Shown here: positions 12,136-61,600 of the stretch, one piece after another
How positions within the stretch are numbered: the stretch's first letter is position 1
Layout: every line of letters starts with the position of its first letter
The notes under the pieces: model-generated
Database searches by the model: none
Told to the model about the DNA's origin: nothing
The model's input: the letters and a program-made list of their open reading frames with translations, nothing else
Program-made: the position numbers and the translations under genes
From: Kiritimatiellia bacterium
Lineage (GTDB): Bacteria > Verrucomicrobiota > Kiritimatiellia > RFP12 > UBA1067
Assembly: GCA_017525475.1 (NCBI GenBank)
Contig: JAFXST010000089.1
Coordinates: forward strand, 1 to 61,730
Direction: 5' to 3'
Length of the DNA: 61,730 bases

Positions 12136-13293
12136 ATGGATAACTATATAAACCGAGCCTTGGAAGATAGCATTCGCTTGGGCCTTAAGCGCAATCCAGT
12201 GTTGGCGCTTTTGGGGCCTCGGCAATGCGGCAAGTCCACTTTGGTGCGCAAGCTTCGCCAGGAGTTTGCCGATTCTCTCTATCTGGATATGGAGCGCCCC
12301 TCGGATGTCGCCAAGTTGGCGGATCCGGAGTTGTTCTTGTCCCGTTGCCAAGACAAACTCGTCTGCATCGACGAAATTCAGCGGAGGCCAAACTTGTTTC
12401 CGGTCTTGCGCTCGTTGTGCGACGAATGGGGTGACAATGGCCATTTCCTGGTTTTAGGGTCGGCCTCGCGCGATCTCATTCGCCAAAGTTCCGAAACGCT
12501 GGCCGGTCGCATCCGTTACGAACGGCTTACGCCATTTCTTTATGGCGAACTGCCAGATTGCGATTGGCAGCGCTACCTTTATCGCGGAGGTTTCCCTCGT
12601 GCCTATCTTGCGTCTGACGATTCGGCGGCGCACGATTGGCTGGAATCCTTTATTCAAACGTTTCTCGAACGGGATTTGTCGTTCTGGCGCGAGTTTGTGC
12701 CCGAAACCATGCGCCGCCTATGGCGCATGCTGGCGCACGACAATGCGCAGATTGCCAATTTTGCCCGGCTTGCCGGCTCGCTGGGCGTGTCCGACATGAC
12801 GGTGCGGCGCTATCTCGATCTGCTCAAAGAAACATTTATGGTCGATGTAGTAAGCCCGTATTCTGCTAACCTCGGCAAGCGGTTAGTCAAGTCGCCCAAA
12901 GTGTACCTTGGCGATACCGGCATAACCTGTGCGCTGTTGGGTATGGCTTCGTTCGACGATCTCTACTCCAGCCCCGCTTTTGGCGGTTGCTGGGAACAGT
13001 TGGTGTTGGCCAATCTTCGTGGCGCATTTCCGCAGGCCGAAATCTGTTTCTACCGCACTTCCGGCGGTGCCGAAATCGATTTTGTGGTTTCAGGCAATGG
13101 CAAGACCGTGGCCGTGGAGTGCAAGGCATCTACTGTGCCATCTGTTGGCCGCGGAGTCTACGAGTCGCTTGAAGCAATTAGGCCAGATGCAGCTTTTGTG
13201 GTGGCGCCAATCGCCGAGCCCTATCCGCTCAACGATCGCATTACCGCCGTTCCGCTTTCGCACCTGCCAAAGCTATTTGACAACTTGCGCTAA
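12136..13293 (+). CDS. AAA+ ATPase with C-terminal DUF4143-type domain
   Basis: AAGGA RBS. Walker A GPRQCGKST, Walker B VCIDEIQ, and the length and layout of the COG1373 / DUF4143 ATPase family. Confidence 0.85.
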   Translation: MDNYINRALEDSIRLGLKRNPVLALLGPRQCGKSTLVRKLRQEFADSLYLDMERPSDVAKLADPELFLSRCQDKLVCIDEIQRRPNLFPVLRSLCDEWGDNGHFLVLGSASRDLIRQSSETLAGRIRYERLTPFLYGELPDCDWQRYLYRGGFPRAYLASDDSAAHDWLESFIQTFLERDLSFWREFVPETMRRLWRMLAHDNAQIANFARLAGSLGVSDMTVRRYLDLLKETFMVDVVSPYSANLGKRLVKSPKVYLGDTGITCALLGMASFDDLYSSPAFGGCWEQLVLANLRGAFPQAEICFYRTSGGAEIDFVVSGNGKTVAVECKASTVPSVGRGVYESLEAIRPDAAFVVAPIAEPYPLNDRITAVPLSHLPKLFDNLR

Positions 13294-17700: not shown

Positions 17701-19566
17701 GCGACTGGCGAAGACGCAGAAACGCCTTTCATCAACATGACAGGTTCGGCGGCGCAACCTTTCAATGTCGCAAGTGAAAAAACACTTTCGGTAAATGCCA
17801 ACATCAAAGGAACGTCGGCATTGACGAAAACAGGCGCAGGTAAGCTTGCACTCAATGGCTATGGAGCAGATAGCGGCTACACGTACACCGGCACGACTAC
17901 GGTTAGTGCGGGGACGTTGGAAATCAATGCAACGCAGACTGGCTCGCCATATAGCCTTGTGGCAGGATCAACGCTGAAGTTTGGCACTTACGCGTCCGTG
18001 ACAATGCCGTCCATTATTCTTCCTGCGTCCGGGACGGCGGCGATTGACGTGAGTGCGTTGACGATTGGCGAAAACGGTGTGAAGCTTGTCACGTTTGCGA
18101 CGACGGCGCCGACCCAGGCGGATGTTGACAGCAAGCTGACAGTGACGGGGGGATACGCACTGAAGGTAGAGGATAACGCGCTCAAGGCGTATCCTGCTGT
18201 GGCGCAATATAACGGCAAGGGGTATGAAACCGTCAAGGCGGCGATTGACGCGGCGGTTGCGGACGGGCACACGTATGCCGATGTCACGATTCTCGACGCG
18301 ACGGCGGAGTGCCCGGATGGGTATTATATCGACAACGGCACACTGAAGAAGAAGCCTGCTTCTATAACGGTCGGCGAAAACGTTTATTATTACACTACCA
18401 TACAGGCGGCGGTACAAGATGCTCTTCCCGCGCCGTATGGGAGCCACTCCAACTACGACTATCTCACCATCTACGAAAGCAACACGGCGGTGGCGATGAT
18501 GGATTACACGCTCAAGCTTGCCACCGCGCCCGGCGTGACGGGTGTGACGGTTTCTCTGCCGGTTTCATTTACTACTACCGAATACGCCGTCTCGTCTGTT
18601 TCAGGCGATACTTATACGACGTATTCCGTTTCTGTGAATCCCAAGACTTATCGGTGGAAGAATGCGGCGGCTGGCACGCTTTGGACGACCCCTTCGAATT
18701 GGGAATTCCAAGACAATGAAACGTGGACGAGCGCACAGCGCTATCCGGGCGACGGCACGACGGGCGACTCCGTCGTCGTGACGGGCGATACGTCCATTCA
18801 GCTTGGTAATGCCGTGACGCTCGCTTCGTTGCAGGTGACGGACGGTGCGCTGGCGCTCGCGATTCCGAGCCAAGGAACAGCGACAACCTTGACCGCTTCC
18901 GAGATTACGCTCGGAGCGAACGCCACAATATCTCTTACAGGCGTGACGCTTTCGCAAGATCCTACGAGCGGGGTGGATTTGATGTATGTCAAGGCCACAA
19001 ATTCAGATGGGACCACTACTTACTCCTTGCAGGCGGCCGGAACGGTCGAAGAGGGGGTTGCCAAGATTACCGATGCCACCGCCGAAGTGACGGTTCCGGC
19101 AAACGCCACTGCAATCGAGGCGGCCCCGGCTGTATCCTCGATCAAACTGGCAGATGGATCGGCGATTACGGACAGCGACGTTACCGTAAAGTATAACGGC
19201 ACGACCAACATAACCGGCGCATTTTCCATCTCGGTAGCTGGCGATCAAGTCACTCTTGCCCTCAATGCGAACGGGTCGGTGACCATCAGCGACAAGACGA
19301 TTACGGTGAAGCCGGCAGTGGATACGTCGGCTGATCCGATGACGATGCCGGACGAAACAACAGCGCCGTCGTTCAACATCAAGACGATTCCGGGCCTCTA
19401 TTATGTGGTGAGGTCGGGTACTTCGCCGAACTCGCTTGCCGCCGGTTCGGCCACGCAGGCCACCACCACCACCACTGGCCTTGCGGGTCCGGCGCTGGGT
19501 AACAAGGACACTGTCCGCTACTACAAGATTTCGGTCGGCCGCACCGCCGCCGAAGCCGCGCAGTAA
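14800..19566 (+). CDS. Giant secreted repeat protein: signal peptide, LamG/concanavalin-like N-terminal domain, autotransporter-associated beta-strand repeats, distinct roughly 60-aa C-terminal module
   Basis: 1588-aa ORF with RBS AAAGGAG. Signal peptide LGLCIFAIGHAWA. Repeated GTLxLSGG / TKTGAGKLALNG...TYTGTTTVSAGTLEIN motifs typical of PVC-type autotransporter-associated beta-strand repeat proteins. The C-terminus reads IPGLYYVVRSG...VRYYKISVGRTAAEAAQ. Confidence 0.85.
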   Translation: MNKTLTGITVAPLTRLFTLGLCIFAIGHAWAAVKPLAVWNGDFVDNSERGGFTFTINGNEQLGVDGVKMGSSNALKFDYDITATRVYNTGTKAYPISIVAAMSNIVVTASTPESTRTLFSISQFASSAANQSVKANFYSFSLNPKSSTGYYLGGDGNLTRVTGTSSYAPVNVFDNADTWHYMAMKHSGNVGTRGCEISAGNNFRELVYDSTLKWGTNDGWGYWGLTVGGAGTANNNCTDAVVRYVALIQSDADTDVEAWSLRNMTRAETLTSSSTSFTGGDNVGVNFNGGTITVASAQTAAALFVQESTTIAINGSGKITTTANGPYQGPLYIADGKTLTVTTDKATEANLRSAFDASLGTGTITLIDAPVYGTVDLSNITSSLPTIDGYTIVATSDENGVRIVMSLNGVNYTGTVTGEATWADKTNISSTDTWANSPSSTITLCNEAEASLTFDEDVNAESLTLNGTGKITLSRGNNVNVRIGDNTTAGKAIIVNTEAVLEDLGQDAAVRITGSNKATLKDYTAFPAGSTLPSTGTLRMESDTVTLTAFPCAGVNLAGTVEVDQSITLTGDGFYLYDNKPAVNIEGGTDSFSRFVLGNKSSYDNPTQTVTQNGGSITVTGTAEPTSTSATMLLGHWPSTSYLYTRGGTFSVPNAAVRMGWNGGATWEIGGGTGTATVTVPGILISKNGTAGRGTVNVAAKGTLNLGSYGLQMQSSAGTLNLSGGTIKATTDTTIANNKSDGTVLTASKETTIDTTSGNVTISAPLSGSGSLNVTGGGTLTITGSGTASGGTIKATDSTIVLSGNGAKPGDTMYSLKKASGSSTTAKLEIRPGEGNTITLAPTHIINSTDSGAQIIVGAGTTKIAHTQTNAGSGTFGGAVVKVEDGGTLEVNNINWTVENVTYGLEIGASSKFAVNALSTNCRPITMGEGATLEVSKGSSYSTTDGALKLDFRNGNGFTVNGNATIQATGEDAETPFINMTGSAAQPFNVASEKTLSVNANIKGTSALTKTGAGKLALNGYGADSGYTYTGTTTVSAGTLEINATQTGSPYSLVAGSTLKFGTYASVTMPSIILPASGTAAIDVSALTIGENGVKLVTFATTAPTQADVDSKLTVTGGYALKVEDNALKAYPAVAQYNGKGYETVKAAIDAAVADGHTYADVTILDATAECPDGYYIDNGTLKKKPASITVGENVYYYTTIQAAVQDALPAPYGSHSNYDYLTIYESNTAVAMMDYTLKLATAPGVTGVTVSLPVSFTTTEYAVSSVSGDTYTTYSVSVNPKTYRWKNAAAGTLWTTPSNWEFQDNETWTSAQRYPGDGTTGDSVVVTGDTSIQLGNAVTLASLQVTDGALALAIPSQGTATTLTASEITLGANATISLTGVTLSQDPTSGVDLMYVKATNSDGTTTYSLQAAGTVEEGVAKITDATAEVTVPANATAIEAAPAVSSIKLADGSAITDSDVTVKYNGTTNITGAFSISVAGDQVTLALNANGSVTISDKTITVKPAVDTSADPMTMPDETTAPSFNIKTIPGLYYVVRSGTSPNSLAAGSATQATTTTTGLAGPALGNKDTVRYYKISVGRTAAEAAQ

Positions 19567-19616
19567 CCCAGCCTCCATATCTGGCACACGCAGGGCGGGG
19601 ACCACTCCCCGCCCTG
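19519..19616. repeat. Gene-end-plus-terminator repeat, copy A (functional 3' end of the giant gene)
   Basis: A 33-nt block (19519-19551) and a 30-nt block (GCCTCCATATCTGGCACACGCAGGGCGGGG) are identical to 20863-20895 and 20918-20947. Confidence 0.9.
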
Positions 19617-19622
19617 TGTTTT
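19591..19622 (+). terminator. Rho-independent terminator of the giant gene
   Basis: CAGGGCGGGG (19591-19600), loop ACCACT, CCCCGCCCTG (19607-19616), then TGTTTT. Confidence 0.8.
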
Positions 19623-19838: not shown

Positions 19839-19847
19839 ATGCGGCAA

Positions 19848-20114
19848 ATGGAACATATTGCAATACTTGGCAATAAAGGCAGATATACTTCGTTTTCGTT
19901 TGGCGGAAAGGAAGTGCGCTTTCTTTCGCCGTCGAATCTTGCGGGGTATCGGCGCGTAACCAAGTGGGACAATGGCTATATCGAGGCGGTGGCGGACTAT
20001 GGAAAGGGCGAGGAAGAGGAATACATCGACTTGATTCCGATTCTCGAGAATCTGTTTATCGAGCCAAAGGAGTTTCTGGCGCCAATCGACAAAGTGGAGG
20101 TGGCAAATGTCTGA
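19848..20114 (+). CDS. Hypothetical small protein (88 aa), possibly translated from a leaderless mRNA
   Basis: The first usable in-frame ATG (19848) lies only about 10 nt after the -10 hexamer, and there is no SD. The 3' end overlaps the next gene. Confidence 0.5.
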   Translation: MEHIAILGNKGRYTSFSFGGKEVRFLSPSNLAGYRRVTKWDNGYIEAVADYGKGEEEEYIDLIPILENLFIEPKEFLAPIDKVEVANV

Positions 20115-20331
20115 TGAGAAAAAATCCGCAATCGCCGACAGCGCCGATTTGATTGTCAACGACTATGCGATAATCCGCAATGGCGACAATTTGCGCTTGG
20201 TCAACTTGCGCACCGGCAATGCGGCGGTAGTGTTGCCGGGCAATGTCGTAAGCGAAACCAGCATGGGCGATATCGAGCTTGGGATAGCGCTCGACTATCT
20301 CAAGAACAATCTGCAATTCCTTGCCGCCTGA
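20107..20331 (+). CDS. Hypothetical small protein (74 aa)
   Basis: GGAGG (20096-20100) lies 6 nt before ATG 20107. The gene overlaps the preceding gene by 8 nt. Confidence 0.55.
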   Translation: MSDEKKSAIADSADLIVNDYAIIRNGDNLRLVNLRTGNAAVVLPGNVVSETSMGDIELGIALDYLKNNLQFLAA

Positions 20332-20333
20332 CC

Positions 20334-20612
20334 ATGCCCAAGTATTACGGATTCAAGGTTTACGGATATTATCTGTACTTTACTTCGCACTGCGTGGTAG
20401 AGGCAATGCACGCCCATGCCAGCGATACTCGATTGTCCGAACGTGGCTCGGCAAAGTTTTTTGTCCGTGCAGACGGCTCTTCGGAGGTTGCCGAGCGAGG
20501 CAGACTGACCGATCGTGAGCTTGTCGGCATTCGCGAGTTTATCCGTTGCAACTACCGGGATATGTATATGCGCTGGTCTGAATATTCCGACCAGGGCTTT
20601 TATCGGGCGTAG
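20334..20612 (+). CDS. DUF4160-like small protein (92 aa)
   Basis: The N-terminus MPKYYGFKVYGYYLYFTS...HAHAS...AKFFV follows the DUF4160 pattern (short beta-hairpin, His-containing segment, then xAKFxL). It starts 2 nt after the previous stop codon. Confidence 0.55.
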   Translation: MPKYYGFKVYGYYLYFTSHCVVEAMHAHASDTRLSERGSAKFFVRADGSSEVAERGRLTDRELVGIREFIRCNYRDMYMRWSEYSDQGFYRA

Positions 20613-20682: not shown

Positions 20683-20862
20683 AGCCTTGCTGCGCATTGC
20701 GCCAGACTTGCGGCATGCCGCCCTAGAGCGGCGTGGCTGAAATGTTTGCTTCTCGATATCCCAATCCACCTTAGCCCGGCGCATGCTCGGATACTTATCA
20801 GGTATAGGGTGATATATACATACCTTAAATCCATTGCCCCGGCTTTCGCAGGCACGGTTCAA

Positions 20863-20960
20863 TACTACAAGATTTCGGTCGGCCGCACCGCCGCCTAAGC
20901 CTCGGTCGAGTAACGACGCCTCCATATCTGGCACACGCAGGGCGGGGCTCACTCCCCGCC
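20863..20960. repeat. Gene-end-plus-terminator repeat, copy B (decayed 3' remnant of a paralogous giant-protein gene)
   Basis: Reads ...APAFAGTVQYYKISVGRTAA*, compared with ...GPALGNKDTVRYYKISVGRTAAEAAQ* in copy A. A TAA replaces the GAA codon, and the terminator stem GGCGGGG/CCCCGCC is retained (20941-20960). Confidence 0.85.
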
Positions 20961-21101
20961 TTGTTGTTTCTTCGCTCCCGGGTGATCTAGATTGCGGGGC
21001 GCAGAGGGTTGGAAGGGGGCGGAAGAGGTAAACGGCAAAGTGGTTTTGGACGGGCGATAGCGGGATTTTGCGGGATTTAGGGTGAAAATTCAAAGTTGTA
21101 C

Positions 21102-21130
21102 TTGAAAAATGAACCCAGGTGTACTATAAT
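21102..21130 (+). promoter_or_regulatory. Putative promoter reading into the repeat-array tract
   Basis: TTGAAA (21102-21107), a 17-nt spacer, then TATAAT (21125-21130) followed by A. Tandem GCGGGATTT x2 (about 21059 and 21069) lies just upstream. Confidence 0.55.
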
Positions 21131-21160
21131 ATGTCTGCATTCAACGAAATGGAGGCGCAG

Positions 21161-21445
21161 ATGATAACTCGAGAATTGGGTCGAATCATTCAGCAGGATG
21201 CCAAATTGTATCTGGCCGGGAACCTGCGGAAGTTTGCGTCGGAAGAGCCGAATGTGGCCGGTACGGCCTTGGTTTACGACGGTGCCGATATCCCGGCGGC
21301 AGACGGCAAGGATACGGCGGTTTTACCAACAAAAGGGGCAAATACGGCCAAGCTTTGGCCAATAGTTACCGCTTCAACTTGCCGGATATTACGCCAAAAG
21401 CGGAAAACACAGTGTCCGGGAGCCAGACAGGGCAGTGTCCGGTAA
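21161..21445 (+). CDS. Questionable small ORF (94 aa)
   Basis: ATG 21161 lies 5 nt after GGAGG (21151-21155). However, the 3' third runs into repeat array 1, and the stop codon is the TAA spacer of the perfect palindrome TGTCCGG-TAA-CCGGACA. No recognisable family. Confidence 0.25.
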   Translation: MITRELGRIIQQDAKLYLAGNLRKFASEEPNVAGTALVYDGADIPAADGKDTAVLPTKGANTAKLWPIVTASTCRILRQKRKTQCPGARQGSVR

Positions 21446-21525
21446 CCGGACAGGGCAGTGTCCGGGAGCCGGACAGTGTAGTGTCCGGGAGCCAGACACT
21501 GCAGTGTACGGCAGCCGGACACCAA
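21411..21525. repeat. Array 1: 5 x 23-bp tandem units, each with the dyad GTGTCCGG-N3-CCGGACAC
   Basis: Unit starts are at 21411, 21434, 21457, 21480 and 21503, exactly 23 bp apart. Units 2 and 3 have perfect 7-bp arms. Confidence 0.9.
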
Positions 21526-21750
21526 CAGAATGGTATCAGAATTGGCAACACTCTCTTTAACACCGATACCGAACAGAAGGCAGAATCGGGTTCGGGTTTA
21601 AAGAAATTGGAGGAAAGTAGGGGGAGAGGGCAGAAAGAAGGGATCGACCAGGTCAAGAGCGAGATTAGACAGGGCGAGTGGGACTCGGTCAAGAACTACC
21701 TCGCCGTGTTCGTCCGCCGCATCCAATCCCGCTTAGGACTGACCGTGTAG

Positions 21751-21860
21751 CATCCCGATGCCTGCGCCTCGCCATCCCGATCCCCGCCCGCCTCCATCCC
21801 GATGACGATGCGCTTTCATCCCGATGCCTGCACCTCGCCATCCCGATGCCTTCGGGTCCG
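21751..21860. repeat. Array 2: 5 x 22-bp direct repeats with invariant core CATCCCGAT
   Basis: Core starts are at 21751, 21773, 21795, 21817 and 21839, exactly 22 bp apart. Units 1 and 4 differ at one position. Confidence 0.9.
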
Positions 21861-21950
21861 GCGAGGATTTGATTTGGGTCCGGACCCGATTTGGATTTGG
21901 TCCCGAGGAAGGGTCTAGTTGCCCTAGGCAACTTGGCCCGTTGCTCTAGG
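21854..21950. repeat. Bridging 22-bp-phased motif pairs (GGGTCCGG / GATTTG units; GTTGCYCTAGG pair; 17-bp palindrome)
   Basis: GGGTCCGG at 21854 and 21876, then GGTCCC at 21899. GATTTG occurs four times. AGTTGCC-CTA-GGCAACT (21917-21933) is a palindrome. GTTGCCCTAGG at 21918 and GTTGCTCTAGG at 21940 are 22 bp apart. Confidence 0.75.
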
Positions 21951-21962
21951 CGCGGCGACTTG

Positions 21963-22116
21963 TTCTCCGTGGAACGCGAGCGACTTGCTCACGGAGACCG
22001 CCAAAGTTCTCCACGGAGACGGCCCAAGTTCTCCACGGTGACCATCGCCGTTCTCCGTGGAGACCATCCGCGTTCTCCGTGGAGAAAATTGGAATCCTCC
22101 ACGGCGATTGGCGCAG
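21963..22116. repeat. Array 3: 7 x 22-bp units with quasi-palindromic core TTCTCC-RY-GGAGAC
   Basis: Unit starts are at 21963, 21985, 22007, 22029, 22051, 22073 and 22095, exactly 22 bp apart. The central dinucleotide alternates GT and AC, so the core occurs in both orientations. Confidence 0.9.
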
Positions 22117-22162
22117 GGGACTTGGGCGTCAGATCCAACCGTTGGCAGGGTGCGCCTTTCGC

Positions 22163-22192
22163 TTGACAAATCGGGTCGGAATATGGTATAAT
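22163..22192 (+). promoter_or_regulatory. Putative promoter of tRNA(CAT)
   Basis: TTGACA (22163-22168), an 18-nt spacer ending in TGG, then TATAAT (22187-22192) followed by A. The tRNA starts at 22223. Confidence 0.65.
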
Positions 22193-22222
22193 ATACGCAA
22201 TCATTTACCCAAGAAGGTTAAT

Positions 22223-22299
22223 GGACCCGTAGCTCAGTCGGTCAGAGCAGGTGACTCATAATCTCCGGGTCGTGGGTTCAAGTCCCGCCGGGTCCACCA
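22223..22299 (+). tRNA. tRNA with anticodon CAT (elongator Met, or Ile2 read via lysidine); CCA encoded
   Basis: Hand-folded cloverleaf: acceptor GGACCCG/CGGGTCC, D-arm GCTC-AGTCGGTCA-GAGC, anticodon loop CTCATAA, T-arm GTGGG-TTCAAGT-CCCGC. It has a G1-C72 pair and lacks the GGG/CCC anticodon stem, so it is not an initiator tRNA. Confidence 0.9.
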
Positions 22300-22308
22300 A
22301 CTTTTGCG

Positions 22309-22824
22309 ATGAAAATGCGAATAATTACTATACTGGGCGCGCTACTGCTCTCGGGATGCGCAACCATGACGAAAACCGATCCGGGCGCGATCGCCGGCCT
22401 GGAATTTGCCGGCTATCCCGGCAAAGCCGGCGAGCAGGACTTTGCCATCTGCGTGTCGACGATAAGCGTCAATTTCATCTTGTGGCATATCTGCTCGGGC
22501 GACATCACCTGGGAGCCGGACAAGGAGGACGTCAACGGTTGGTGGACGTTTGACGACTGCTGCACGCAGGACCGGTTCATGGAGCTCATGGAGAAACTCG
22601 CCAAGCATTACGACGCCGATATCATCCAGTACCAGTACGACGACTACGAGCCGTTCAAACTGGGCGCCCTCACCGATACCGCCAACGCGCCGTATTGGGT
22701 GGCGTACTGGTTTTTCCCCACGCGCGAGGTGGAATGCTCGGCGGTGCTGAGGATCCGGCCCAAGGCGGCCGAGGCGGCGGCGGATACGGAGGCGAGCGCA
22801 ACTACAGTGGAGGTGGCGCAATGA
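22309..22824 (+). CDS. Putative lipoprotein (171 aa)
   Basis: Lipobox LLLSGC. It starts 9 nt after the tRNA CCA end. It shares the motif F-x-LW-x-ICSG-x2-W with the next gene. Confidence 0.7.
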   Translation: MKMRIITILGALLLSGCATMTKTDPGAIAGLEFAGYPGKAGEQDFAICVSTISVNFILWHICSGDITWEPDKEDVNGWWTFDDCCTQDRFMELMEKLAKHYDADIIQYQYDDYEPFKLGALTDTANAPYWVAYWFFPTREVECSAVLRIRPKAAEAAADTEASATTVEVAQ

Positions 22825-61141: not shown

Positions 61142-61600
61142 ATGAACAAGTCAATCGTCTGCGCCTTGTGCGCATTGTTGAGCGTGGCGGCGGTGGCCGC
61201 CCCGAGAGGCCCGGCGCCCCGGCGTCACGCACCCAAGGCCGTGCACCATTTCCGGCCGGCGCCCCGGCACCATCACCACCACCATGCCGAAGTCGGCCTG
61301 GTGGGCGGATTTGTCGGCGGCGTGGTGGGGAGCCTCGTCTACGATGCGATCGTGCGCCCCGAGCCGGTGGTGGTAAGCCCCGCCCCGGTCGTGGTGGCCC
61401 AACCCGCGCCCGTGGTGGTGTCCCAGCCGGCGCCGGTGGTGGTAAGTTCCGCTCCGGTAGTGGTCGAAGCCGCCCCCGCCGCCCAGGTGGAGCGCGTCTG
61501 GGTGGGCGGCCGGTACGTGGACCAAGTGCAGGCCAACGGCTCGATCGTCCGCGTCTGGCAACCCGGCCACTGGGAAGAGCGCCTCGTCGTCGTGCGTTAG
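61142..61600 (+). CDS. Small secreted protein with a His6 run and PAPVVV tandem repeats
   Basis: Signal peptide MNKSIVCALCALLSVAAVAAP. HHHHHH, then four or five copies of (S/A)PAPVVV(A/S)(Q/S), and C-terminal RVWVGGRYVD...VRVWQPGHWEER. Confidence 0.65.
   Translation: MNKSIVCALCALLSVAAVAAPRGPAPRRHAPKAVHHFRPAPRHHHHHHAEVGLVGGFVGGVVGSLVYDAIVRPEPVVVSPAPVVVAQPAPVVVSQPAPVVVSSAPVVVEAAPAAQVERVWVGGRYVDQVQANGSIVRVWQPGHWEERLVVVR

What the first reader, a model, noticed from the sequence alone, without database searches (positions are those of the whole stretch)
21751..21860. Array 2: five direct 22-bp iteron-like repeats with invariant 9-bp core CATCCCGAT
The units read CATCCCGATGCCTGCGCCTCGC, CATCCCGATCCCCGCCCGCCTC, CATCCCGATGACGATGCGCTTT, CATCCCGATGCCTGCACCTCGC and CATCCCGATGCCTTCGGGTCCG, with starts exactly 22 bp apart (21751 to 21839). 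The core is asymmetric (not a dyad) and always in the same orientation, while the 13-bp spacers vary. This is the classic look of Rep-protein iterons in theta-replicating plasmids and some phage/satellite origins. Units 1 and 4 differ by a single base, which suggests a recent 66-bp (three-unit) duplication.
Basis: partly seen in the sequence, partly recalled or inferred. Interest (0 to 1): 0.65.

Follow-up and report, generated by a model that had tools for sequence, protein, structure and literature searches.

The report
Iteron-like repeats beside a truncated replication gene
The five 22-bp repeats are real and start right after the stop codon of a cut-off copy of a phage/plasmid-type replication-initiator gene, so they look like protein-binding "iterons" of a mobile-element replication module that was partly copied into a defence-gene island of an uncultured gut bacterium; that is a known kind of feature in an unstudied lineage.

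Summary
CATCCCGAT occurs five times in the window, all at 21751-21847, exactly 22 bp apart. The core is invariant in 17 distinct units from 9 related loci, while all 13 other positions vary.

The array (A2) is not isolated. It opens a continuous 360-bp lattice of 22-bp units (21751-22110) with four core families. A fifth array (A1, 5 x 23-bp palindromes) lies 230 bp upstream.

A2 starts at the base after the stop codon of a gene fragment (21316-21750). The fragment equals residues 75-195 of a 195-aa winged-helix protein (Pfam HTH_36; PHROG "replication initiation protein", E 1e-9).

The intact gene was found in a related contig (L424). There it sits 4 bp after a DUF3987 (SF6 replicative helicase family) gene, with A1 inside it and A2/A3 right behind it. 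This is the SaPI rep-ori and lambda O-ori layout.

The window copy lacks the helicase gene and the DNA-binding domain. It lies in a low-GC island with toxin-antitoxin and candidate defence genes, just upstream of tRNA-Met. Species with 85-90% identical ilvB lack the island.

All arrays vary in copy number between strains. Binding and replication are untested. I read it as a new member of a known kind, of moderate interest.

The parts
21751..21860 (+). Array A2 (the finding): 5 units of 22 bp with the invariant core CATCCCGAT(G). It begins at the base after the TAG stop codon of the initiator-gene fragment.
   Evidence: core/spacer contrast; copy number 5/6/8 in sister strains
21316..21750 (+). 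5'-truncated copy of a winged-helix (HTH_36) replication-initiator-like gene. It encodes only residues 75-195 of P0122; the HTH domain (residues 20-70) is missing. Array A1 is embedded in it.
   Evidence: tblastn; alignment to L424 (about 99% identical from 21316); Pfam and PHROG hits of the full-length P0122
21410..21524 (+). Array A1: 5 abutting 23-bp palindromic units, CAGTGTCCGG-NNN-CCGGACACTG, lying inside the initiator reading frame. The 5 versus 2 units in L424 is a 69-bp in-frame difference.
   Evidence: lag-23 identity 0.84
21521..21568 (.). The only relatively AT-rich stretch in the module (37.5% GC in 40-bp windows), directly after A1.
21851..21916 (+). Array A2b: 3 units of 22 bp around GGGTCCGG / GATTTGG, including the palindrome GGGTCCGGACCC. 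Copy number is 1 to 4 among related loci.
   Evidence: (D8)
21917..21961 (+). Two GTTGCYCTAGGC units 22 bp apart. The first is the 17-bp palindrome AGTTGCCCTAGGCAACT. They are in the same register as A2b and A3.
21962..22110 (+). Array A3: 7 units of 22 bp with the near-palindromic core GTTCTCC(AC/GT)GGAGAC. Copy number varies between strains.
21102..21445 (+). Sigma-70-like promoter (21102-21130) and a chimeric 104-aa ORF (21131-21445). Its first 62 codons are unrelated sequence. The rest reads the initiator fragment out of frame and stops inside A1. It marks the left breakpoint of the partial duplication.
   Evidence: (no homologue outside its own cluster)
22163..22299 (+). Right boundary, not part of the module: a perfect TTGACA-18-TATAAT promoter and tRNA-Met(CAT). 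Homology with related species starts here, at 22220.

Best explanation
A2 is an iteron-type protein-binding array. It belongs to the origin or control region of a mobile-element replication module made of a DUF3987 (SF6) helicase gene and a winged-helix initiator gene.

In the intact module (L424), palindromic repeats (A1) followed by a modestly AT-rich stretch lie inside the initiator gene, as in lambda O / ori-lambda. A lattice of 22-bp repeats (A2, A2b, GTTGCYCTAGGC units, A3) starts at the first base after its stop codon, as in the rep-ori modules of SaPI staphylococcal satellites.

Inferred mechanism: sequence-specific proteins bind each 9-15-bp core. These would be the initiator, and for the other core families probably a second, unidentified protein. 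The 22-bp spacing (about two helical turns) puts the sites on roughly one face of the DNA, so the proteins can oligomerise, bend the DNA and help load the helicase. Alternatively, like P1 incA or F incC iterons placed behind the rep gene, they could titrate or 'handcuff' the initiator to limit replication.

The window holds a recent partial duplicate (21316 to about 22085, about 99% identical to L424 outside the arrays). It lacks the helicase gene and the initiator's DNA-binding domain. Here the array can therefore act only in trans with an intact copy elsewhere in the genome, or it is an orphan that persists as a copy-number-variable repeat.

Shown: the anatomy, the gene homology, the linkage, the core conservation and the copy-number variation. 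Inferred: protein binding, which protein binds which core, and any replication activity.
For: 1. A2 begins immediately after the TAG of the initiator-type reading frame at this locus (window, L001 and L003) and in L424 and L367.

2. The full-length homologue P0122 (195 aa) passes the Pfam HTH_36 threshold (32.2 bits against a cut-off of 25). It matches nine PHROG families with replication annotations (replication initiation protein, replication initiation O-like, primosomal protein, DnaD-like helicase loader), best E 1.4e-9.

3. The gene 4 bp upstream in L424 is DUF3987 (Pfam 34.4 bits against 27; PHROG 'DNA primase', E 1.8e-36). DUF3987 proteins are SF6 replicative helicases of phages and mobile elements (PMC4889955), and helicase activity has been shown for one (PMC11724360).

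4. SaPI Rep proteins are helicases with a C-terminal winged-helix domain. Their 6-12 iterons lie immediately downstream of the rep reading frame (PMC9371898).

5. The core is invariant in 17 distinct units from 9 loci, while all 13 other columns vary. In the more diverged L423/L425 copies I counted about 10 of 24 spacer positions changed against 0 of 18 core positions, matching units by eye (Fisher p = 0.002).

6. The sequence shared between loci ends inside or at the arrays and does not include the downstream promoters. The arrays therefore travel with the rep gene, not with a promoter.

7. An independent viral contig (L159) carries 7 units of about 22 bp with the same palindrome type as A1, inside an O-like initiator gene (phrog_345, E 1.4e-4).

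8. There is no significant single-strand structure (z = -1.0) and no Rfam family apart from the tRNA. This fits a double-stranded DNA site.
Against: - No intact initiator or helicase gene exists in the window.
- No strongly AT-rich unwinding element adjoins A2 and there are no DnaA boxes.
- At least four different cores share the lattice, so the single winged-helix protein cannot explain all of them.
- The lambda analogy points to A1, not A2, as the initiator's own site.
- A2 also occurs without a rep gene: after a terminator (L373/L375), after a RelB-PIN cassette (L423), and beside other arrays (L425).
- No integrase, phage structural or plasmid genes were seen around L424 or the window, so no complete mobile element is defined.
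- Only one intact module was found. The DUF3987 protein there is short (268 aa), and L367 suggests the L424 initiator carries a 40-aa internal deletion.
- Tandem arrays of 22-23 bp containing CATCCCGATG also occur in an ordinary housekeeping intergenic region of another gut bacterium (L418). The repeat form alone is therefore not diagnostic.
Confidence: 0.5

Rival explanations
1. Operator or upstream-activator array: a transcription factor binds the repeats to control a neighbouring strong promoter (tRNA-Met here; abiEi, a giant surface-protein gene or an unknown transcript in related loci).
For: Arrays end 40-60 bp upstream of consensus TTGACA-N18-TATAAT promoters in several loci. Examples are A3 before the tRNA-Met promoter, A3 before the 988-aa gene promoter in L424, and A2 before the abiEi promoter in L367 and before another promoter in L423/L425. 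An HTH_36 protein could in principle be a regulator.
Against: Species with 85-90% identical ilvB keep the same tRNA-Met and promoter type but have no arrays. Homology between array-bearing loci stops before the promoters, so array and promoter are not one unit. In the window A2 lies about 400 bp from the nearest downstream promoter. The linked protein scores as a replication initiator in PHROGs.
Confidence: 0.15
2. Functionless minisatellite: the array is a relic that expands and contracts by slippage or unequal crossing-over. The intact cores reflect recent common ancestry and reshuffling of a few ancestral unit types, not present selection.
For: Copy number is 5, 6 and 8 in strains with identical ilvB. 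Flanks are about 99% identical to L424 while A2 spacers look like recombinants of a few types. The initiator is truncated. Insertion sequences sit in or next to the arrays in L373 and L425.
Against: Units whose spacers differ at about 40% of positions still have identical cores. Homogenisation by conversion would erase spacer differences as well. A separate array with the core variant CATAACGATG (L423 array Y) suggests the cores evolve as recognition sites.
Confidence: 0.2
3. Centromere-like partition site or other structural nucleoprotein site. The model is arrays of short repeats bound by a ParR/ParG-type adaptor, as in type Ib/II plasmid partition.
For: The form fits: multiple tandem repeats at a fixed helical phase, several adjacent blocks, and toxin-antitoxin maintenance genes nearby. 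Plasmid parC sites are arrays of direct repeats (established knowledge).
Against: No ParA/ParM/ParR-like gene was found among the ORFs scanned near the arrays in the window or L424. The array is tied to the replication gene's stop codon, not to a par operon promoter.
Confidence: 0.05
4. Origin decoy in a defence island: orphan iteron blocks titrate the initiators of invading or resident elements, or they fire on infection to amplify the neighbouring defence cassettes.
For: The partial copy lacks its own initiator yet is about 99% conserved. It lies in a low-GC island with a PDC-S01 candidate defence gene and a DUF4160-type cassette. Related loci carry PDC-S05, AbiEi and RelB-PIN. Cloned phage origins are known to protect lactococci by titrating phage replication factors (established knowledge, 'Per' phenotype).
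Against: None of the three cores was found as an array in a virus of this host. The viral scan for A2 gave only 3 chance-like hits. There was no DNA match in the phage or plasmid collections. The reading is purely circumstantial.
Confidence: 0.07

Closest known systems
SaPI/PICI pri-rep-ori modules (staphylococcal phage satellites)
   Same: A helicase with a winged-helix origin-recognition part. The iterons start immediately downstream of the rep reading frame. The element sits in the chromosome (PMC9371898). Here a DUF3987 helicase-family gene plus a winged-helix gene is followed at once by A2.
   Different: SaPI iterons are 5-6-bp repeats in two inverted sets around a central AT-rich region. 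Here the units are 22 bp, all in one orientation, with four core families and no central AT-rich block. The helicase belongs to the DUF3987/SF6 family and is encoded separately from the winged-helix protein. No integrase, packaging or regulatory genes of a satellite were seen. The window copy is truncated.
Phage lambda O protein and ori-lambda
   Same: Dyad-symmetric iterons lie inside the initiator gene, between its DNA-binding and C-terminal parts, and are followed by an AT-rich stretch (established knowledge). A1 does the same in P0122, and copy changes are in frame. PHROG 'replication initiation O-like' families match.
   Different: This parallel concerns A1, not the array of the finding. 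A2 lies outside the gene. There is no lambda P-like or DnaB-loader gene; a DUF3987 helicase gene is present instead. Sequence similarity to O-like families is remote (E 1e-6 to 1e-9).
Iteron plasmids: R6K gamma ori (seven 22-bp iterons), RK2 oriV (17-bp iterons on a 22-23-bp spacing), P1 incA / F incC (iterons behind the rep gene that limit copy number)
   Same: Direct repeats in one orientation with a conserved core, variable spacers and a period of about 22 bp. Arrays placed behind the rep gene (incA/incC) act by titration or handcuffing (established knowledge; general review PMC5043065).
   Different: In those plasmids all iterons share one consensus bound by one Rep of the Rep_3/pi/TrfA type, and DnaA boxes and a clear unwinding element are present. 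Here there is no DnaA box, the cores are heterogeneous, the initiator family differs, and the location is chromosomal. There is no DNA or close protein match in 72,556 plasmids.

Membership tests
Iteron-type replication origin / control region (Rep-iteron replicons, SaPI rep-ori, lambda O-ori) | Three or more direct repeats with a conserved core at a regular spacing of about two helical turns, all in one orientation | tested here: met
   Five units at exactly 22 bp. The core is invariant in 17 distinct units from 9 loci while all other columns vary.
Iteron-type replication origin / control region (Rep-iteron replicons, SaPI rep-ori, lambda O-ori) | Physical linkage to an intact initiator gene in the same locus | tested here: not met
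   The window encodes only residues 75-195 of the 195-aa initiator-like protein. The HTH domain and the DUF3987 gene are absent from the whole window.
Iteron-type replication origin / control region (Rep-iteron replicons, SaPI rep-ori, lambda O-ori) | Co-occurrence of the same array with an intact initiator gene in a related genome | tested here: met
   In L424 the order is DUF3987 gene, HTH_36 gene (PHROG replication initiation, E 1.4e-9), then A2 x6 directly after the stop codon. Only one such intact locus was found.
Iteron-type replication origin / control region (Rep-iteron replicons, SaPI rep-ori, lambda O-ori) | Adjacent AT-rich DNA unwinding element | tested here: inconclusive
   No 40-bp window with GC of 37.5% or less touches A2. 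The only such stretch in the module is 21521-21568, after A1 and about 180 bp upstream of A2, and it is only modestly AT-rich.
Iteron-type replication origin / control region (Rep-iteron replicons, SaPI rep-ori, lambda O-ori) | The initiator binds the repeats and the region supports replication or exerts incompatibility | not testable with these tools
   This needs gel-shift, footprinting or DAP-seq assays and replication or incompatibility assays.
Chromosomal origin oriC | Cluster of DnaA boxes, switch of GC skew and gene orientation, dnaA/dnaN neighbourhood | tested here: not met
   No TTATCCACA within one mismatch in 20901-22300. No skew switch near 22 kb. The Pfam-supported and ATG-start long ORFs on both sides are on the + strand. 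Related species lack the region altogether.
Plasmid centromere (parC/parS-type repeat array) | Array located at a partition operon (ParA/ParM ATPase plus adaptor) | tested here: not met
   No such gene among the ORFs scanned around the arrays in the window or among the genes called in L424.
Conserved upstream regulatory element of the tRNA-Met gene | Presence upstream of the orthologous tRNA-Met in related species | tested here: not met
   L129, L130 and L132 (ilvB 85-90% identical) have the tRNA and the same promoter type 60-100 bp after the preceding gene, with no arrays. Homology to the window starts at 22220.
Structured RNA or single-strand DNA element (Rfam family, hairpin-type origin, attC-like site) | A significant fold or a match to a curated family | tested here: not met
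   Rfam E-value search of 20900-22320 finds only the tRNA. The DNA fold z-score is -1.0.

The most novel reading that the evidence does not exclude
The 360-bp lattice is a 'battery' of several distinct iteron families kept in one 22-bp register. It has been copied without its initiator into a defence-gene island. It would work in trans in one of two ways. It could be a sink that titrates or handcuffs the replication initiators of resident or invading elements (an origin decoy giving exclusion). Or it could be an infection-triggered origin that amplifies the neighbouring toxin-antitoxin and defence cassettes. The shuffling of array blocks between loci (window, L367, L373, L423, L424, L425) would then be turnover of specificities.
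Probability: 0.08. Interest if true: 0.75.

Novelty: new member of a known kind. Interest (0 to 1): 0.4.

Why it matters
Nothing is known about how mobile elements replicate in Kiritimatiellae-like gut and rumen bacteria. If the reading holds, this locus and its intact relative give a first candidate replication module for the group: an SF6 helicase, a winged-helix initiator and a defined set of repeats. That could seed a cloning vector for a group with no genetic tools.

It also shows how an initiator-less copy of an origin region can persist and vary in copy number inside a defence island. Such a copy is a ready marker for strain typing. If it acts in trans, it would be a possible case of natural origin-based exclusion.

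For annotation, the chimeric 104-aa and 112-aa gene calls over array A1 in public assemblies are artefacts of a truncated gene.

Tried and rejected
A three-unit ATCCCGAT array in a Kiritimatiellae genome bin (L066) has no tRNA and no similarity of context. It was dropped.

2. A viral scan for A2 gave 3 chance-like hits. A viral scan for a single A3 core ran at chance level. The two-core A3 scan gave one contig (L429) with three successive 22-bp arrays near tail genes. The form is similar but the sequence is not homologous.

3. blastn of 21100-22200 against 50,697 phages and 72,556 plasmids gave no match. tblastn of P0122 gave no phage match and only weak plasmid 'HTH domain' hits. Back-translated scans of viral contigs for P0122 and the DUF3987 protein found nothing.

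4. The 104-aa ORF upstream has no homologue outside its own cluster. Its tail turned out to be the initiator fragment read out of frame.

5. Pfam and PHROG searches on the fragment alone gave nothing. The family only became visible through the full-length homologue. My impression of a DnaD-like C-terminus is not supported by any profile.

6. A full HMMER search with the C-terminal 75 residues found only 4 proteins, all of this small family.

7. AlphaFold on P0122 alone gave mean pLDDT 40. That is unusable, so no fold search was run. A PDB sequence search gave nothing.

8. I considered and rejected an oriC, a tRNA-promoter element and a structured RNA.

9. The other CATCCCGAT arrays from the metagenome scan are unrelated tandem repeats. 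One (L418) lies between 2-oxoacid dehydrogenase genes of a gut bacterium. This shows that the repeat form alone proves nothing.

Full report
**1. Observation**

CATCCCGAT occurs five times in the 61,730 bases on both strands. All five are here, starting at 21751, 21773, 21795, 21817 and 21839. Shuffles expect 0.89 matches, and 0 of 100 reach 5. Tandem Repeats Finder gives period 22, 4.6 copies, score 100.

Two details need correcting. In four of five units the core extends to CATC-CC-GATG, a weak 4+4 dyad, so it is not strictly asymmetric. The proposed 66-bp three-unit duplication is not supported. Units 2/5 and 3/6 are unlike each other. Strains with an identical ilvB protein have 5 (window), 6 (L003) and 8 (L001, L002) units, through gain of single CCTGC(G/A)CCTCGC-type units.

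**2. The array is part of a larger repeat structure**

- From 21751 to 22110 the DNA keeps a single 22-bp register. Lag-22 identity is 0.589, against 0.262 +/- 0.029 for other lags.
- The register passes through four core families:
  - A2: CATCCCGAT, 5 units.
  - A2b: GGGTCCGG/GATTTGG, 3 units.
  - Two GTTGCYCTAGGC units, one of them a 17-bp palindrome.
  - A3: GTTCTCC(AC/GT)GGAGAC, 7 units.
- About 230 bp upstream lies A1, five abutting 23-bp palindromes CAGTGTCCGG-NNN-CCGGACACTG.
- A1 is followed by the only relatively AT-rich stretch of the region, 21521-21568 at 37.5% GC.
- None of the cores recurs elsewhere in the window.
- Directly after A3 come a perfect TTGACA-18-TATAAT promoter and tRNA-Met.

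**3. Genomic setting**

- The flanks are chromosomal. ilvB, ilvN, etfBA and an acyl-CoA dehydrogenase gene lie downstream. V-ATPase, a CLC channel and PFK lie upstream.
- The nearest named ilvB homologues (76% identity) come from Kiritimatiellae genome bins.
- The stretch from about 12 to 22.2 kb has 49-58% GC, against about 65% around it.
- That stretch holds:
  - a DUF4143 ATPase that matches the candidate defence family PDC-S01;
  - a 1588-aa surface protein;
  - a DUF7724/DUF7723/DUF4160 three-gene cassette under its own consensus promoter;
  - a duplicated copy of the surface gene's 3' end with its terminator.
- In species whose ilvB is 85-90% identical (L129, L130, L132) the tRNA-Met follows the preceding gene by 60-100 bp. 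Homology with the window begins at 22220, and there are no arrays.
- The arrays are therefore neither a conserved tRNA-promoter element nor an oriC. There are no DnaA boxes, no skew switch, and the Pfam-supported long ORFs on both sides lie on the + strand.

**4. What the array is attached to**

- A metagenome scan for three cores found homologous arrays in contigs L367, L373, L375 and L423. The other 55 hits are unrelated repeats.
- L367 showed that the reading frame ending in TAG at 21750 is conserved as protein, with an in-frame 120-bp difference and mostly synonymous changes.
- Searching with that peptide found P0122, a 195-aa protein. It passes Pfam HTH_36 (residues 20-70; 32.2 bits against a cut-off of 25). 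It matches nine PHROG families with replication annotations (initiation protein, initiation O-like, primosomal protein, DnaD-like helicase loader), best E 1.4e-9.
- Its contig L424 comes from the same sample as the sister locus L001. It carries, in order:
  - a consensus promoter;
  - a DUF3987 gene (PHROG 'DNA primase' central region, E 1.8e-36);
  - 4 bp later, the HTH_36 gene with two A1 units and the AT-rich stretch inside it;
  - immediately after its TAG, A2 (6 units), A2b, the GTTGCYCTAGGC units and A3;
  - the promoter of a 988-aa surface-protein gene.
- DUF3987 proteins are SF6 replicative helicases of phages and mobile elements (PMC4889955). One has demonstrated 5'-3' helicase activity (PMC11724360).
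- Window and L424 are about 99% identical from window 21316 to the start of A2. They differ by three substitutions and a 69-bp in-frame difference in A1, 5 units against 2.
- Upstream of 21316 the sequences are unrelated.
- By tblastn the window encodes only residues 75-195 of P0122. It has no DUF3987 gene anywhere.
- The window therefore holds a recent partial duplicate of the module's 3' two-thirds. The duplicate lacks the DNA-binding domain and the helicase gene.
- The 104-aa and 112-aa 'genes' called over A1 in public assemblies are chimeric or partial readings of this fragment.

**5. Is the core under constraint?**

- Across 9 loci there are 17 distinct A2 units. Positions 1-9 are invariant, and every one of the other 13 positions varies.
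- Much of the spacer variety between window and L424 looks like reshuffling of a few unit types. That alone would not prove selection.
- In the more diverged L423/L425 copies, however, spacers differ from their closest window counterparts at about 10 of 24 positions, counted by eye, while 18 core positions are unchanged (Fisher p = 0.002).
- A separate array with the related core CATAACGATG exists (array Y in L423, tail units in L367).
- An A1 variant in L425 has symmetric changes in both half-sites, GTGTCCTC...GAGGACAC.
- This is the behaviour expected of recognition sites, not of a uniformly decaying duplication.

**6. Mechanism**

The layout combines two known designs.
- Lambda O / ori-lambda has dyad iterons inside the initiator gene followed by an AT-rich stretch (established knowledge). 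A1 matches this.
- SaPI rep-ori has a helicase with a winged-helix origin-recognition part, and iterons start immediately downstream of the rep reading frame (PMC9371898). A2 matches this.
- An independent viral contig (L159) carries seven units of about 22 bp with an A1-like palindrome inside an O-like initiator gene.

I therefore read A2 as a protein-binding iteron array of the origin or control region. Sites spaced every two helical turns would allow cooperative assembly that bends the DNA and helps load the helicase. Alternatively, like P1 incA or F incC behind the rep gene, the array could titrate or handcuff the initiator.

Which protein binds CATCCCGAT(G) is unknown. With four or five core families, one winged-helix protein cannot account for all of them. 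By the lambda analogy the initiator's own sites could be A1. In the window the array can act only in trans or is an orphan. All of this paragraph is inference.

**7. Evidence that tempers the reading**

- A2 also occurs without any rep gene:
  - after a terminator, with an IS110 element behind A3 (L373);
  - after a RelB-PIN cassette (L423);
  - next to an AT-rich stretch ringed by GAAACTTCAC repeats, and again downstream (L425).
- The array blocks are shuffled among loci. They are interleaved with promoter-plus-toxin-antitoxin or defence cassettes (AbiEi in L367, RelB-PIN in L423, PDC-S05/ORF6N in L001).
- Arrays often end 40-60 bp before strong promoters, which keeps a regulatory role possible. 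However, the sequence shared between loci stops before the promoters.
- No integrase or other backbone genes define a complete element.
- Only one intact module was found, and even that may be reduced (a 268-aa DUF3987 protein; a 40-aa deletion relative to L367).
- Arrays of similar form occur in a plain metabolic intergenic region of another gut bacterium (L418).

**8. Verdict**

- The 'iteron' interpretation is partly supported by context and conservation, but not by any functional test.
- This is a new member of a known kind: an iteron-type repeat region of a helicase plus winged-helix replication module. It is present here as a truncated, copy-number-variable duplicate in a defence island of an uncultured Kiritimatiellae-like bacterium.
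- Interest is moderate (0.4).
- The most novel reading not excluded is an initiator-less iteron battery acting in trans as an origin decoy or an inducible amplifier of defence cassettes. It is circumstantial, at about 8%.

Noticed in passing
L426 8712-9060 (compare window 22223-22310): One metagenome scaffold is identical to the window from the giant surface-protein gene through the arrays and tRNA-Met. It then continues with rpmH-rnpA-yidD-yidC instead of the lipoprotein genes and ilvB. This is either a real rearrangement at a repeated tRNA-Met gene or a chimeric scaffold.
   Followed up: partly
window 19845-20612 versus L001 4317-5086: The DUF7724/DUF7723/DUF4160 three-gene cassette is only about 68% identical in DNA between the window and a sister strain whose flanks are 98% identical. 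This is an allele or cassette swap at a fixed position. The sister strain also has an extra ORF6N gene that matches candidate defence family PDC-S05.
   Followed up: partly
window 19509-19622 and 20853-20969: The last ~50 bp of the 1588-aa surface-protein gene and its terminator are duplicated (87-88% identity) 1.35 kb downstream, bracketing the three-gene cassette. The same 3' end plus terminator recurs at other giant-gene ends in L001 and L373.
   Followed up: partly
window 12136-13293: A DUF4143/AAA_14 ATPase matches the PADLOC candidate defence family PDC-S01 (E 2.7e-86). It lies at the start of the low-GC stretch (about 12-22.2 kb, 49-58% GC against about 65%).
   Followed up: partly
L425 1690-2340: An rve-family insertion sequence sits inside the tail of A3. 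Next comes a 45-bp stretch of about 90% AT ringed by about 7 direct and inverted GAAACTTCAC repeats, which looks like an origin. Then follow A2 (4 units) and a variant of A1 with matching changes in both half-sites (GTGTCCTC...GAGGACAC).
   Followed up: no
L423 (minus strand) 3340-1860: Further 21-22-bp arrays have other cores: AAAGGTGACACCGTTT (6.6 units), ACATAACGATGT (4 units) and GGTAGC-N4-GCTACC (3 units). They are interleaved with a RelB/DinJ-PIN toxin-antitoxin pair under a consensus promoter.
   Followed up: no
L373 (minus strand) about 2000-760: An IS110-family transposase gene with an upstream non-coding region is inserted right after A3, where the window has the tRNA-Met promoter.
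   Followed up: no
L159 5911-7053: A viral contig has a 380-aa O-like initiator gene. Seven units of about 22 bp (TGTCCGGAAACCGGACA) and a second 12-bp repeat are embedded in frame in its middle.
   Followed up: partly
L429 281-497: A viral contig has three successive 22-bp arrays with different cores (for example TATCACCATGGTGATA) in a non-coding gap beside tail sheath and tube genes. The form is the same as the window's lattice, but the sequence is unrelated.
   Followed up: no
L418 7790-7950: A gut-metagenome contig has about 7 tandem 23-bp units, CATGACATCCCGATGTCACCCGT (a palindrome around the same CATCCCGATG). They lie between the E2 and E1 genes of a 2-oxoacid dehydrogenase, with no mobile-element genes nearby.
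   Followed up: partly
window 61356-61443: Tandem repeats of period 21 and 24 (scores 59 and 88) lie at the far end of the window. I did not examine them.
   Followed up: no
window 21410-21524 versus L001 6106-6193: A1 has 5 units in the window, 4 in L001/L002 and 2 in L424. Because the unit is 23 bp, single-unit changes shift the reading frame of the overlapping ORFs. Removing unit 1 or 2 in the window would fuse the 104-aa ORF to the initiator fragment, giving 198 aa.
   Followed up: partly
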